A stretch of DNA of 64,000 bases from an uncultured Clostridia bacterium (GTDB taxonomy: Bacteria > Bacillota > Clostridia > TANB77 > CAG-508), in the NCBI GenBank assembly GCA_934121885.1, contig CAKOVH010000001.1, forward strand, positions 143,825 through 207,824, written 5' to 3'. This document shows, piece by piece, positions 22,344 through 24,748 of the stretch. Each line of letters opens with the position of its first letter. The stretch's first letter is position 1. Below the pieces are notes generated by a model, which was given only the letters and a program-made list of their open reading frames with translations, had not been told where the DNA came from and searched no databases. A program made the translations under genes and the position numbers.

Positions 22344-23621
22344 TTACCTTTCTTCTCCGTCTTTCTCCTTCGCAACTCGTAAAATTTCTTCATAATTATA
22401 CGGATTCTTTACTAATTGTATTAATTGTTCACTAGTAACTCCATCAACCCCTGAATTTTTATATGTTTTTCTATTATATTTTTCTAATTCTTGTAATCCA
22501 ACTTCAGGTGTTATTTTTTGATATGGAGTATATATCGTTGGTCTTATGGTTACATTTTTTCCTTTTAAGAATTTTAATGTTTGTACAATGCTTTCCTTTC
22601 TCTGATTTGGCATTCCAAGCATTATACATCCTTTAACTCCAATTCCTGTACTTTGTATTCTATCAATTGCTCCTGATATTTCTTGTATTTCAAATTCCTT
22701 TGTATGTATTAATTCTTCATTATTTAAACTTTCTATTCCTAATGATATTTGTCTGCAACCAGCTTCATACATTTCTTTAAGCATTTCAATATCCCTTACT
22801 AAGTCAATTCTCGTTGCACACTCCCATGTAATATCCGGACATTCTTCTCTCAATAATTTGCAAAATTCTTTTACATATTCCTTATCTAATGTAAAATTTG
22901 CTGCCCATATTTTTATATGTTTGTATTTCTTTTCTATTTGTTTTAGCGCTTCTCTTAGATTATCTATGCTTCTTCGTCTTTCTTTTCTACCTTCTGTAAG
23001 TTGTATTAAACAATGTGGGCATCCATATGGACATCCTCTGCTTATATTCAAAACAAATCTATTTTTTCCTTTTAGTTCATCATACTTATCTACTGGTACA
23101 AATTCTTGTTTTGATATTCCCCAACTATTTGGTGATATATACTTTCCCTGTTCTGTTTCGATAAACCTTCCATCTCTTATAATATTAGCTCCAAGTAGTG
23201 ATTTTTGTAGTTCTTGTATATCTTTTTTCTCATCATAACTTTGTAAAAATGTTCTAATGCAAACCTCAGGATCACCATTTTTGAATATTACATCAAACTT
23301 AGAATTTAAAAACATCTCCGGTAGTCTTATAGGAATTGAACCATATCCCATTATAGGTATACTATATTTTTCCTTTATTTTTTCACATAGTAAAAATGCA
23401 TTTTCAGCATTTTCATAATTAATCTGCATTACAACTTTTTGTATGTTATTTGATTTTATTAATTCTAAAGCATCTTCACTTTGAACATCACAATCCAATG
23501 CAACTAACTGATTTTGAAAAAAATTATTTAAATAATCTACACATTCTCCAAACTGAGTATAGTGATAATTTATATGTACTACATCTTTAGATTTTGGCCA
23601 TATTACTAAGTATTTTTCCAT
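22344..23621 (-). CDS. B12-binding domain radical SAM protein (class B radical SAM, putative methyltransferase)
   Basis: N-terminal B12-binding-like domain then RGCPYGCPHC (CxxxCxxC). 425 aa. Start/stop is coupled to the DUF402 gene. Confidence 0.85.
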   Translation of the reverse strand: MEKYLVIWPKSKDVVHINYHYTQFGECVDYLNNFFQNQLVALDCDVQSEDALELIKSNNIQKVVMQINYENAENAFLLCEKIKEKYSIPIMGYGSIPIRLPEMFLNSKFDVIFKNGDPEVCIRTFLQSYDEKKDIQELQKSLLGANIIRDGRFIETEQGKYISPNSWGISKQEFVPVDKYDELKGKNRFVLNISRGCPYGCPHCLIQLTEGRKERRRSIDNLREALKQIEKKYKHIKIWAANFTLDKEYVKEFCKLLREECPDITWECATRIDLVRDIEMLKEMYEAGCRQISLGIESLNNEELIHTKEFEIQEISGAIDRIQSTGIGVKGCIMLGMPNQRKESIVQTLKFLKGKNVTIRPTIYTPYQKITPEVGLQELEKYNRKTYKNSGVDGVTSEQLIQLVKNPYNYEEILRVAKEKDGEER

Positions 23622-24181
23622 TATTTCTTGCTATCTCCTATTTTTTCTAGTAATTTACTAAAGCATCTATTGCATAAGTTTTCTAAATAAGAATAATCTT
23701 TTGATATAATCTTCATTATTCTATTTGCCTCACTATATGCATTATTATATTGAGCTTTAGTTATAATTTTATTATCTAATGCCTCTTTTAATTCATCTTC
23801 ATCAAGTAAGAATATTTCTCCACTAGGTAATAATACTATATCTAAAAATATATCACAAAAATACGAATTTTCATAGTCGTTAATCACATTTTTTTCTGTT
23901 ATGTCAATATAATATTGTACACATTCTCTTTTCTCATTATACATTGCTGTAATCCAATAGTTTTTATCTTCCATTCCAATTTGTAACCAAAAATAGCCAT
24001 CATCTACAATTTTTATTTTTTTATTATTATATATTTTGAAACTAGGTTCTTTAACTTTTTTTATGCAAATTATGCTTGCTATACCTTTTACCTCTTTATT
24101 TTCTATCTTTTCAAATGCATCTATTCTTTCGGTTACTCTTTTCCAATTTTTTCTCGAGATATACTTTTTTTCTATTTCCAT
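23621..24181 (-). CDS. DUF402 domain protein (FomD-like nucleotide hydrolase family)
   Basis: WITAMYNEKRECVQYYIDI...DIFLDIVLLPSGEIFLLDEDEL matches the DUF402 core. Confidence 0.6.
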   Translation of the reverse strand: MEIEKKYISRKNWKRVTERIDAFEKIENKEVKGIASIICIKKVKEPSFKIYNNKKIKIVDDGYFWLQIGMEDKNYWITAMYNEKRECVQYYIDITEKNVINDYENSYFCDIFLDIVLLPSGEIFLLDEDELKEALDNKIITKAQYNNAYSEANRIMKIISKDYSYLENLCNRCFSKLLEKIGDSKK

Positions 24182-24202
24182 ACATTTTCCTTTTAATATA
24201 TT

Positions 24203-24748
24203 TTATTTTTTTATATAATCATCTTTATATGATGAGTATATAATTTTATCTAATTTTTCTCCTGTTTTTTCATCTATTTTTCTTTCTTTTAATACCGCTT
24301 CTTTTTTCATTCCTATATCTTCTAATATTGGTTTATTTATTTTATCCATATTTGAATAGTATTCATATGTTACAATATTAAAATCTTTATCAATAATTAG
24401 ATATTCTATAGCACTTTTCATAGCTTCAATAGATATACCTTGTCCTAACCATTTATACCCAATTCCCCAACTTATTTTACACGTTTTATTTGCTATTGAT
24501 ACTTCATATACTCGTATATATCCAACTAAATCATGGGTTTCTTTTAATTCTATAGCCCAAGTTGCAGATTCTTCTCCATCTCCTAGACCAATCTGTATTA
24601 TTTCTCGTGTTTCATTTACATTGGAATGTACCTTAAAATCCGACATATCTGCAATTTTTTCAATACCTGCCCAATTATTATATGCTTGCTGTGCATCCTC
24701 TACTTCGAATTTTCTTAGTATTAACCTTTCTGTTTCTAATTTTTTCAT
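24203..24748 (-). CDS. GNAT family N-acetyltransferase (RimJ/RimL-like)
   Basis: MKKLETERLILRKFEVEDAQ... start with a GGAGG RBS. Confidence 0.8.
   Translation of the reverse strand: MKKLETERLILRKFEVEDAQQAYNNWAGIEKIADMSDFKVHSNVNETREIIQIGLGDGEESATWAIELKETHDLVGYIRVYEVSIANKTCKISWGIGYKWLGQGISIEAMKSAIEYLIIDKDFNIVTYEYYSNMDKINKPILEDIGMKKEAVLKERKIDEKTGEKLDKIIYSSYKDDYIKK

What the first reader, a model, noticed from the sequence alone, without database searches (positions are those of the whole stretch)
22344..24748. GNAT - DUF402 (FomD-like) - B12-binding radical SAM cassette
The DUF402 gene and the class B radical SAM gene are translationally coupled (stop/start overlap at 23621). In fosfomycin biosynthesis the B12-rSAM methyltransferase Fom3 acts on a CMP-linked substrate and the DUF402 enzyme FomD removes the nucleotide. 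The same pairing here, without phosphonate genes, suggests C-methylation (or another radical chemistry) on a nucleotide-linked small molecule, conceivably a nucleotide sugar related to the neighbouring glycan locus. This is an uncharacterised combination.
Basis: inference. Interest (0 to 1): 0.55.

Follow-up and report, generated by a model that had tools for sequence, protein, structure and literature searches.

The report
Radical SAM enzyme paired with nucleotide phosphatase
A small nucleotide-cleaving enzyme (DUF402) and an uncharacterised radical SAM enzyme form a conserved two-gene unit in uncultured gut Clostridia that probably performs radical chemistry on a nucleotide or nucleotide-linked metabolite; the neighbouring acetyltransferase, the sugar-polymer locus and the vitamin B12 assumption are not supported as parts of it.

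Summary
The three genes exist as described: GNAT 24203-24748, DUF402 23621-24181 and radical SAM 22344-23621, all on the minus strand, with a TAATG stop/start overlap at 23621.

DUF402-rSAM is a real conserved pair. It recurs with gaps of -8 to +33 nt in about 13 lineages (rSAM 45-94% identical) whose flanking genes differ.

The GNAT occurs only in the closest relatives.

In the sister clade DUF402 is replaced by a translationally coupled Cof-type HAD phosphatase. More distant relatives sit beside an NT5C-type nucleotidase or are fused to a NUDIX domain. Other neighbours include Ham1, PurA and an adenylate-kinase-like gene. This points to a nucleotide or NDP-linked substrate.

B12 use is unproven. 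PF02310 scores 13 bits (cutoff 32), and the best structural match is the cobalamin-free dehydratase AprD4. FomD is the most distant solved DUF402 (8-9% identity); the active-site motif matches NtdP.

Verdict: an uncharacterised rSAM family, the observation confirmed and the interpretation partly supported. The reaction is unknown. Interest is moderate.

The parts
23621..24181 (-). DUF402 protein (186 aa), predicted two-metal nucleotide phosphohydrolase; core member of the module
   Evidence: PF04167 41.5 bits against cutoff 23.9. Invariant D93, D110, D114, D127, E130 in 33 relatives. The motif LLDEDEL matches NtdP LLDEDEY. AF2 model pLDDT 95. Fold matches RNase W, 2P12, NtdP, SC4828 and FomD. 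Directly upstream of the rSAM in about 13 lineages.
22344..23621 (-). Radical SAM enzyme (425 aa) with an N-terminal Rossmann-like domain (class B / AprD4-like architecture); core member of the module
24203..24748 (-). RimJ/RimL-type GNAT acetyltransferase (181 aa); probably co-transcribed here but a lineage-specific addition, not a conserved member
   Evidence: PF13302 50.7 bits. Present upstream of the pair only in the window and L102/L103, absent in L001/L022 and all other lineages. Only 8 close relatives in the database.
24774..24802 (-). Promoter-like site (TTGAAG-17-TATATT, TG-extended) upstream of the GNAT; possible start of the three-gene transcript
   Evidence: Consensus scan only, 9/12 matches; the total count of such sites in the region equals the shuffle expectation.
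24853..24878 (-). Terminator-like hairpin after the upstream Cys/Gly-rich ORF; probable upstream boundary of the unit
   Evidence: The only terminator-like site found in 21000-25300.
22311..22339 (-). Best promoter-like site of the region (TTGCCA-17-TG-TATAAT, 11/12), between the rSAM stop and OLE RNA; downstream boundary; suggests OLE has its own promoter
   Evidence: No terminator-like site was found between the rSAM and OLE, so read-through is not excluded.

Best explanation
The functional unit is a two-gene module, DUF402 plus radical SAM enzyme, not a three-gene cassette.

Inferred mechanism. The rSAM binds a [4Fe-4S] cluster through C197/C201/C204 and cleaves SAM to a 5'-deoxyadenosyl radical. 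It abstracts a hydrogen atom from a nucleotide-level substrate, either a free (deoxy)nucleoside phosphate or a nucleoside-diphosphate-linked molecule (NDP-X). The conserved edge of its N-terminal Rossmann-like domain (H16, I17, Y19, H20, D43, E70, N71, Y93, G94, G116) faces the barrel and holds either a cofactor or the phosphate/nucleotide part of the substrate. The DUF402 partner uses a two-metal acidic site (D93, D110, D114, D127, E128, E130) to hydrolyse a phosphoanhydride bond. It either trims NTP/NDP to the form the rSAM uses or releases the modified product from its nucleotide part.

Shown: the domain identities, the conserved translationally coupled pairing, and the replacement of DUF402 by other phosphohydrolases in sister and more distant lineages.

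Inferred: the substrate class and the order of the steps.

Unknown: the reaction type (methylation if cobalamin is bound; dehydration or rearrangement as in AprD4 or OxsB if not).

The GNAT, the OLE RNA and the glycan locus are neighbours of this genus-level lineage only.
For: 1. The pairing is conserved. DUF402 lies directly upstream of the rSAM, gap -8 to +33 nt, in the window, L102/103, L001/022, L023, L104/105, L002, L003, L026, L004, L106/107, L111, L028 and L005. The rSAMs are 45-94% identical and the flanks are unrelated.

2. The partner is swapped within one functional class.
- The sister clade (monophyletic in 100/100 bootstraps) has a Cof-type HAD phosphatase (PF08282, 140 bits) overlapping the rSAM stop by 11-14 nt, or 8 nt downstream, in six lineages.
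- NUDIX genes lie beside it in L006 and L027.
- The relative P0204 (32% identical) is followed 9 nt later by an NT5C-type nucleotidase.
- Three full-length relatives are fused to a NUDIX domain with an intact Nudix box, and one of these has a histidine phosphatase next to it.
- A metallophosphoesterase lies downstream in L104 and L023.

3. Other neighbours are nucleotide enzymes.
- PurA is translationally coupled to the rSAM, followed by an NrtR-type regulator and Ham1, in L113-115 and L008.
- An adenylate-kinase-family gene and a PP-loop enzyme flank the rSAM in L118.
- TatD follows the HAD in L108.

4. DUF402 chemistry. All characterised members cleave nucleotide phosphoester or phosphoanhydride bonds at a two-metal acidic site (PMC11602121). 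The acidic residues are invariant here and the motif matches NtdP.

5. Precedents for a class-B-type rSAM working with a nucleotide phosphohydrolase: Fom3/FomD (PMC8158854) and OxsB/OxsA (PMC13331322).
Against: No biochemical data exist for any family member. Neighbourhood evidence gives a substrate class, not a reaction. Several partners (Cof-type HAD, metallophosphoesterase, histidine phosphatase) are broad-specificity phosphatases that also act on sugar phosphates or cofactors. One relative (L120) has no nucleotide-related neighbour, and L007 has no partner at all. DUF402 proteins of the same subfamily (44-48% identical) occur without the rSAM, so DUF402 may be a general house-cleaning enzyme that is merely co-transcribed. 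The NUDIX fusions are only 22-24% identical to the window protein and may have a different substrate.
Confidence: 0.55

Rival explanations
1. The strict Fom3/FomD analogy. A cobalamin-dependent class B methyltransferase C-methylates a small molecule that carries a transient nucleotidyl (for example CMP) handle, and DUF402 then removes the handle.
For: Fom3/FomD is the only published DUF402 plus class B rSAM pairing. The pair here is conserved and translationally coupled. NUDIX partners and fusions hydrolyse NDP-X bonds, which is what handle removal requires. The fold matches cobalamin-bound TsrM, MgmA and CysS almost as well as AprD4. Clade B relatives reach 24.6 bits on PF02310.
Against: No nucleotidyltransferase is conserved next to the pair in any lineage. 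FomD is the most distant solved DUF402: no sequence hit at E<=10, and 8-9% identity by structure. PF02310 is below its cutoff. The best match is the cobalamin-free AprD4. The DUF402 subfamily also occurs alone among NUDIX and Ham1 genes. No cobalamin riboswitch is found in the window or in 13 related loci.
Confidence: 0.15
2. Adjacency without a shared pathway. DUF402 is a general NtdP-like house-cleaning nucleotidase that happens to share an operon with an rSAM acting on something unrelated.
For: The same DUF402 subfamily is found without the rSAM, in a mixed NUDIX/Ham1/GNAT/MBL gene cluster in Oceanirhabdus and alone in L021. L007 and the L008 lineage lack DUF402. Clostridial genomes often cluster small hydrolase and GNAT genes.
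Against: Tight coupling (overlap or a few nucleotides) persists over rSAM divergence from 94% to 45% and through at least seven different flanking contexts. An independent phosphohydrolase replaces DUF402 at the other end of the gene in the sister clade, and a NUDIX domain is physically fused in relatives. Chance co-transcription does not predict this.
Confidence: 0.12
3. An RNA-directed system. The rSAM modifies an RNA nucleoside and DUF402 acts as an RNase W-like nuclease or RNA-binding partner, possibly on the adjacent OLE RNA.
For: RNase W/FAU-1 is the best sequence-profile and Foldseek match of the DUF402 protein. RimO, MiaB and MtaB are good fold matches of the rSAM. OLE RNA starts 25 nt after the rSAM stop with no terminator-like site between. 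Some loci have tsaD, a ThiF-family gene, tRNA or 6S RNA genes nearby.
Against: OLE follows the pair only in three lineages whose rSAMs are at least 84% identical. OLE has its own strong promoter-like site. The DUF402 protein keeps the full phosphatase-type acidic set that RNase W has partly lost, and it lacks the RNase G/E-like RNA-recognition domains. The rSAM N-domain lacks the Cys triad of methylthiotransferases. HAD, NT5C and NUDIX partners act on small molecules. The main text of the OLE phylogenetic-profiling study has no mention of rSAM or DUF402.
Confidence: 0.06
4. A RiPP maturase. The rSAM modifies the Cys/Gly-rich 58-aa peptide encoded just upstream (24896-25072).
For: There are weak partial NCBIfam hits to the RiPP rSAMs ApyD and rSAM_ocin_1. 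A Cys-rich small ORF lies upstream in the window and in L001.
Against: The peptide is absent from L102 and from all other family loci. A terminator-like hairpin separates it from the GNAT. The hits are generic rSAM-core matches far below cutoff (64.7 against 750). No protease, transporter or RiPP recognition element is nearby. The conserved partner is a phosphohydrolase.
Confidence: 0.02

Closest known systems
AprD4 (radical SAM 1,2-diol dehydratase of apramycin biosynthesis; PDB 6FD2)
   Different: Only 14-16% identity. NCBIfam rSAM_AprD4 scores 55 bits against a cutoff of 500. AprD4 acts on an aminoglycoside and partners with a reductase (AprD3), not a phosphohydrolase. It sits in an actinomycete antibiotic cluster, not a gut Clostridia housekeeping context. 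AprD4 does not bind cobalamin (PMC12931638); the status here is unknown.
Fom3 / FomD (fosfomycin biosynthesis)
   Same: The only published case of a class B rSAM working with a DUF402 hydrolase. Fom3 methylates 2-HEP-CMP and FomD then hydrolyses the phosphoanhydride (PMC8158854). The domain pair is the same as here.
   Different: FomD is the most distant solved DUF402 relative (no sequence hit at E<=10; 8-9% identity). There are no phosphonate genes and no cytidylyltransferase here. Cobalamin binding is unproven. The module is a two-gene unit in varied housekeeping contexts, not part of a biosynthetic cluster. The Fom3 sequence could not be compared directly.
OxsB / OxsA (oxetanocin A biosynthesis)
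   Different: OxsA is an HD-domain enzyme, not DUF402. OxsB is about 730 aa with extra N- and C-terminal domains and binds cobalamin. It is a plasmid-borne antibiotic pathway in Bacillus.
NtdP / SA1684 (S. aureus nucleoside tri- and diphosphatase, DUF402)
   Same: Best single-sequence PDB hit of the DUF402 protein (E 5e-4). Similar size and single-domain layout. The metal-binding motif is almost identical (LLDEDEL against LLDEDEY, plus D110 and D114). The fold matches (TMt 0.60).
   Different: About 13% identity overall. NCBIfam NtdP scores 18.7 bits against a cutoff of 280. The universally conserved Asn is Asp (D93) in this subfamily. No rSAM partner was found in the literature on NtdP that was searched here.
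RNase W / FAU-1 (archaeal DUF402 ribonuclease)
   Same: Best profile hit and best Foldseek hit of the DUF402 protein (E 2.9e-8, and E 1.4e-7 at 19% identity).
   Different: [quoted passage not shown] It has lost one acidic metal ligand (replaced by Lys), which this protein keeps.

Membership tests
Radical SAM superfamily (PF04055) | Score above the Pfam gathering threshold, and a CxxxCxxC motif for the [4Fe-4S] cluster | tested here: met
   70.3 bits against 29.5. C197/C201/C204 are invariant in 90 sequences.
Class B (cobalamin-dependent) radical SAM enzymes | N-terminal Rossmann-type domain followed by the rSAM barrel (class I architecture of PMC12931638) | tested here: met
   The AF2 model (pLDDT 94.9) aligns over its full length with TsrM, MgmA, CysS, TokK and OxsB. 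The same architecture is shared by the cobalamin-free AprD4.
Class B (cobalamin-dependent) radical SAM enzymes | Recognisable B12-binding domain by HMM (PF02310 at or above the gathering score) | tested here: not met
   13.4 bits, E 0.068, against a cutoff of 32.1 for the window N-domain. Clade B relatives score 24.6 bits, also below the cutoff. Only 4 of about 98 relatives carry a precomputed PF02310 hit.
Class B (cobalamin-dependent) radical SAM enzymes | Actual binding and use of cobalamin | not testable with these tools
   AprD4 and ArsL show that this architecture can lack cobalamin. No model coordinates were available to inspect the pocket.
Named class-B-type families in NCBIfam (BchE, HpnJ, PhpK, ApyD, MJ_1487, AprD4, ArsL, BzaD, HpnR, KedN5 and others) | Score at or above the curated family cutoff | tested here: not met
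   The best are BchE 79.8 against 481, HpnJ 78.2 against 578, PhpK 73.1 against 600 and AprD4 55.2 against 500. The protein belongs to none of them.
Fom3-type HEP-CMP methyltransferase | Specific sequence kinship to Fom3 (UniProt Q56184) in a phylogeny | not tested
   No Fom3 sequence or model was reachable with the tools. There is no solved structure and no NCBIfam model.
DUF402 (PF04167) | Score above the Pfam gathering threshold, and the beta-barrel plus three-helix fold | tested here: met
   41.5 bits against 23.9. The nine fold hits at E<=0.001 are chains from seven entries, all of solved DUF402 proteins.
DUF402 phosphohydrolases (NtdP, SC4828, FomD type) | Complete acidic ligand set for two metal ions | tested here: met
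   D93, D110, D114, D127 and E130 are invariant and E128 nearly so. They align to the NtdP motif and to PfRNase W N404, D420, D424 and D437. The Lys substitution of RNase W is absent. The residue mapping comes from pairwise alignments, not from a structural superposition.
NtdP equivalog (NF049996) | Score at or above the curated cutoff | tested here: not met
   18.7 bits against 280.
FomD-like hydrolases | Closer to FomD than to other DUF402 proteins | tested here: not met
   FomD is absent from phmmer and hmmsearch hits at E<=10. By Foldseek it ranks last among DUF402 structures, at 8-9% identity.
GNAT (PF13302 Acetyltransf_3) | Score above the gathering threshold | tested here: met
   50.7 bits against 25.4. 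RimJ equivalog NF008072 scores 25.7 against 190, so that is not met.
Conserved three-gene GNAT-DUF402-rSAM cassette (as claimed) | The GNAT orthologue accompanies the pair across lineages | tested here: not met
   Present only in the window and L102/L103. Other GNAT neighbours (L004; L024/L027) are unrelated subfamilies in other positions.
Anti-phage defence systems (PADLOC-DB) | Specific model hit for either protein | tested here: not met
   Only a generic rSAM-core hit to PDC-M51A (24.9 bits). Nothing for DUF402 or the GNAT.

The most novel reading that the evidence does not exclude
The rSAM is a cobalamin-independent, AprD4-like radical dehydratase or rearrangement enzyme that works on the sugar of a free nucleotide. 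Together with its phosphohydrolase partner it makes a deoxy- or didehydro-nucleotide or nucleoside. That would be a viperin-like or OxsB-like antimetabolite, or a previously unknown route in nucleotide salvage or repair, produced as a core function by abundant uncultured gut Clostridia.
Probability: 0.1. Interest if true: 0.85.

Novelty: new variant of a known kind. Interest (0 to 1): 0.5.

Why it matters
Radical SAM enzymes that act on nucleotides (viperin, OxsB, MoaA, QueE) have each revealed unusual chemistry, and some make antiviral or antibiotic nucleoside analogues.

This is a compact, uncharacterised family found so far only in uncultured gut and animal-associated Clostridia. One member (P0095) was seen in more than 100 blocks of the collection. 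Its partner gene is repeatedly swapped among different nucleotide or phosphate hydrolases, and in distant relatives a NUDIX domain is fused to it. That pattern narrows the substrate search to a small panel that can be tested in vitro.

The case is also a useful caution. A 'B12-binding radical SAM' annotation rests on a fold that cobalamin-free enzymes share.

If the product is a modified nucleotide or nucleoside made by common gut anaerobes, it could matter for microbe-microbe, phage or host interactions.

Tried and rejected
1. OLE RNA link. OLE (369 bits) lies 25 nt downstream of the rSAM. Rfam and nhmmer scans found it beside the pair only in three closely related lineages, and it has its own promoter-like site. 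I treated it as an incidental neighbour.

2. RiPP precursor. The Cys/Gly-rich ORF upstream is conserved only in L001. Rejected.

3. Glycan-locus link. The locus is real and looks self-contained, but it is absent beside the pair elsewhere. Rejected.

4. GNAT as a third member. Rejected after comparing all neighbouring GNATs and running a homologue search.

5. Defence system. The PADLOC scan was negative. Only the distant NUDIX-fusion locus L116 has defence-like flanks.

6. Literature. One paper holds both 'DUF402' and 'radical SAM', a fosfomycin review. In its main text, the OLE gene-association study mentions none of these genes.

7. Phylogeny against Fom3 and GenK. NCBIfam score ranking and PDB fold ranking were used instead.

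8. Cobalamin-pocket inspection. Not possible, because model coordinates are not exposed. Only HMM scores and the placement of conserved residues on the predicted secondary structure were used.

9. One Pfam call failed on a mis-framed coordinate and was repeated.
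Full report
OBSERVATION

The window is about 27% G+C and Clostridium-like. On the minus strand it carries, in order:
- a GNAT (24203-24748 from the ATG; PF13302, 50.7 bits);
- a DUF402 protein (23621-24181; PF04167, 41.5 bits against a cutoff of 23.9);
- a radical SAM (rSAM) protein (22344-23621; PF04055, 70.3 bits).

The DUF402 stop and the rSAM start overlap as TAATG at 23621, and the GNAT stop is 21 nt from the DUF402 start. A terminator-like hairpin (24878-24853) and a weak promoter-like site (24802-24774) precede the GNAT, which fits a three-gene transcript here.

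A 174-aa membrane protein follows it in the position expected of OapA. The strongest promoter-like site of the region (TTGCCA-17-TG-TATAAT) lies between the rSAM stop and OLE.

WHAT IS CONSERVED

The rSAM belongs to a narrow family.
- About 98 clusters of full-length relatives are 36-94% identical, followed by a drop to roughly 30% for generic B12-type rSAMs.
- Only 13 loci in the 185,579 species genomes searched hold a family member, and all come from uncultured gut or animal-associated Clostridia MAGs.

Loci came from genomes, metagenomes and exact-protein look-ups. tblastn and ORF analysis of them show three things.

1. DUF402 lies directly upstream of the rSAM, with a gap of -8 to +33 nt, in about 13 lineages whose rSAMs are 45-94% identical to the window's. 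The flanking genes are unrelated:
   - glgP/GH57 in L102;
   - the U32 peptidase gene in L001;
   - tsaD and a metallophosphoesterase plus lepA in L104;
   - uvrC and murB in L106 and L111;
   - a large upstream ORF (ileS-like by eye, not scanned) and a ThiF-family gene in L003;
   - a dnaE-like ORF (by eye, not scanned) and a transglycosylase in L005.
2. The GNAT accompanies the pair only in the window and in L102/L103 (87%). It is absent from L001/L022 (84%) and from every other lineage. GNATs near other members (L004; L024/L027) belong to unrelated subfamilies and sit in other positions. The window GNAT is a generic RimJ/RimL-type protein with eight close relatives.
3. OLE RNA follows the pair only in the three closest lineages.

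The glycan locus at 1397-18421 is real. It holds CapD-like, two DegT, Bac_transf, GFO, hexapeptide acyltransferase, UDP-sugar dehydrogenase and GT4 genes. It is separated from the pair by OLE, the OapA candidate, TM2, DUF2752, galE and a plus-strand block of small ORFs that includes a ParE-type toxin gene. No such locus lies beside the pair in the other lineages.

PARTNER SWAPPING

A neighbour-joining tree splits the family. A sister clade is monophyletic in 100 of 100 bootstraps and lacks DUF402. Instead, a Cof-type HAD phosphatase (PF08282, 140 bits) overlaps the rSAM stop by 11-14 nt, or lies 8 nt downstream, in six lineages:
- L006/L025, L009, L015, L024 and L027;
- the widespread P0095 lineage (L108-110), where TatD follows the HAD.

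NUDIX genes lie next to this unit in L006 and L027. A lineage nested within the DUF402 clade (L008, L113-115) has neither partner. In L113-115 the rSAM stop overlaps the start of purA, and in both L008 and L113-115 an NrtR-type regulator and Ham1/ITPase follow.

An exhaustive profile search extended the family to full-length relatives at 200-370 bits. Among them and their loci:
- Three (P0246, P0255, P0258) are rSAM-NUDIX fusions with an intact Nudix box.
- One fusion has a histidine phosphatase as a neighbour.
- P0204 is followed 9 nt later by an NT5C-type 5'-(deoxy)nucleotidase.
- P0206 is flanked by an adenylate-kinase-family gene and an overlapping PP-loop enzyme.
- P0208 has no nucleotide-related neighbour.

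The constant feature is therefore an rSAM of this type joined to a phosphohydrolase, often one specific for nucleotides. Fold and gene order vary. This is the main argument that the substrate or product is a nucleotide or a nucleoside-diphosphate-linked compound.

THE TWO PROTEINS

The rSAM
- The model is confident (pLDDT 94.9) and has the class B layout: a five-stranded Rossmann-like N-domain followed by the barrel.
- A 2026 review states that AprD4 and ArsL do not bind cobalamin although they cluster with B12-rSAMs (PMC12931638).
- PF02310 scores 13.4 bits on the window N-domain and 24.6 bits on clade B relatives, both below the 32.1 cutoff.
- All named NCBIfam families score far below their cutoffs.
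- The invariant N-domain residues (H16, I17, Y19, H20, D43, E70, N71, Y93, G94, G116) lie at the C-terminal ends of the predicted strands. That is the ligand-binding edge of such folds (inference). Something is bound there, but cofactor and substrate cannot be told apart.
- In short, this is class B by architecture, and cobalamin use and methylation are unproven.

The DUF402 protein
- The model is also confident (pLDDT 95.1).
- The nine fold hits at E<=0.001 are chains from seven entries, all of solved DUF402 proteins, in this order: RNase W/FAU-1, 2P12, NtdP, SC4828 and last FomD at 8-9% identity.
- By sequence, NtdP and FAU-1 are hit, and FomD is not hit even at E<=10.
- According to PMC11602121, DUF402 phosphatases use two metal ions held by acidic residues, and RNase W has replaced one ligand with Lys.
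- This subfamily keeps D93, D110, D114, D127, E128 and E130, and its motif LLDEDEL matches NtdP's LLDEDEY. A phosphohydrolase is therefore more likely than an RNase.
- Members of the same subfamily at 44-48% identity occur without the rSAM. In Oceanirhabdus seepicola the gene lies between NUDIX, MBL and Ham1 genes, and in L021 it stands alone.

MECHANISM

Most likely (confidence about 0.55), the rSAM generates a 5'-deoxyadenosyl radical and modifies a nucleotide-level substrate. The DUF402 enzyme cleaves a phosphoanhydride bond, either to prepare that substrate or to release the product.

Two published systems work this way:
- Fom3/FomD, with a CMP-linked phosphonate (PMC8158854);
- OxsB/OxsA, with deoxyadenosine phosphates (PMC13331322).

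The evidence does not decide between modification of the nucleotide itself and modification of a group attached to it. NUDIX partners fit NDP-X substrates. NT5C, Ham1, PurA and kinase neighbours fit free nucleotides.

Rivals:
- The strict Fom3-like reading (0.15) lacks a handle-installing nucleotidyltransferase, B12 evidence and FomD kinship.
- Co-transcription without a shared pathway (0.12) does not explain the partner swaps and the fusions.
- An RNA-directed role (0.06) is weakened by the narrow distribution of the OLE adjacency and by the phosphatase-type active site.
- A RiPP role (0.02) is weakened by the absence of a conserved peptide.

NOVELTY AND VERDICT

The only paper in the searched library that holds both 'DUF402' and 'radical SAM' is a fosfomycin review. 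The main text of the OLE gene-association study mentions none of these genes. No defence-system model fits.

The family fails every named-family threshold but follows the logic of known rSAM-plus-phosphohydrolase systems, so I class it as a new variant of a known kind. It is a sound lead for enzyme discovery with a short list of candidate substrates. It is not a surprise at the level of principle. Interest: 0.5.

Noticed in passing
window 21715-22318 (-) and 21172-21696 (-): A full-length OLE (ornate large extremophilic) RNA (RF01071, 369 bits) is followed by a 174-aa multi-pass membrane protein in the position expected of OapA. It lies directly downstream of the rSAM and has its own strong promoter-like site at 22339-22311. 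The same arrangement occurs in L102 and in L001/L022. The OapA identity was not tested by HMM.
   Followed up: partly
window 24896-25072 (-): A 58-aa Cys/Gly-rich ORF with a hydrophobic tail (MQEEVRACGCDGNNNNCCGGG...LLFFILIFLLLFNNCGCCNR) has an RBS and a terminator-like hairpin. It is 72% conserved in L001/L022 and has no Pfam, NCBIfam or PADLOC hit. It is not linked to the rSAM pair in other lineages.
   Followed up: partly
window 57727-57912 (-): A 6S/SsrS RNA (RF00013, 104 bits).
   Followed up: no
window 18628-19371 (+): Three small plus-strand ORFs between galE and the CapD-like gene. The last is a ParE-family toxin (PF05016, 36.6 bits), which suggests a type II toxin-antitoxin insertion. 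The same module is present in L102.
   Followed up: partly
window 20583-21072 (-): Overlapping small membrane-protein genes, TM2 (71 aa, PF05154) and DUF2752 (102 aa, PF10825), lie downstream of the OapA candidate. They are conserved in L102.
   Followed up: no
window 1397-18421 (-): A 14-gene polysaccharide locus: CapD-like, two DegT aminotransferases, Bac_transf priming transferase, GFO oxidoreductase, hexapeptide acyltransferase, UDP-sugar dehydrogenase, GT4 transferases and an AsnB-like amidotransferase. It resembles loci for 2,3-diacetamido uronic acid sugars; that resemblance is recalled, not tested.
   Followed up: partly
window 25171-27645 (+), 27665-27973 (-), 27985-29571 (-): An 824-aa double U32 peptidase-family protein with TrhP/UbiU-like and UbiV-like halves, an RNHCP-domain zinc-ribbon protein, and a 528-aa protein with a C-terminal uridine-kinase/PRK domain and a long N-terminal extension.
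   Followed up: no
P0246, P0255, P0258; L116 5001-6746: Distant full-length relatives of the rSAM are fused to a C-terminal NUDIX domain. P0255 has a further extension of about 250 aa with no domain call. The L116 flanks (SLFN_AlbA_2, AAA_15/21 ATPase, DUF3489, methyltransferase) look like a defence or mobile island.
   Followed up: partly
L006 7214-8691, L009 2359-3836, L015 1768-3241: A 356-aa ORF with a weak class I LysRS-like (tRNA-synt_1f) signal overlaps an ASCH-domain ORF. The pair recurs next to the clade B rSAM-HAD unit in three related loci, and in L015 it is on the opposite strand. Its function is unknown.
   Followed up: no
P0254, P0266, P0281, P0288, P0303 (about 800 aa): More distant rSAMs of the same superfamily are fused to a class I/II aminotransferase domain. 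P0300 is fused to a GT4 glycosyltransferase and has a clear PF02310 B12 domain (76 bits).
   Followed up: no
L024 7481-8500 (+): A second, unrelated radical SAM gene (339 aa, PF04055 41 bits) lies about 1.4 kb downstream of the rSAM-HAD unit.
   Followed up: no
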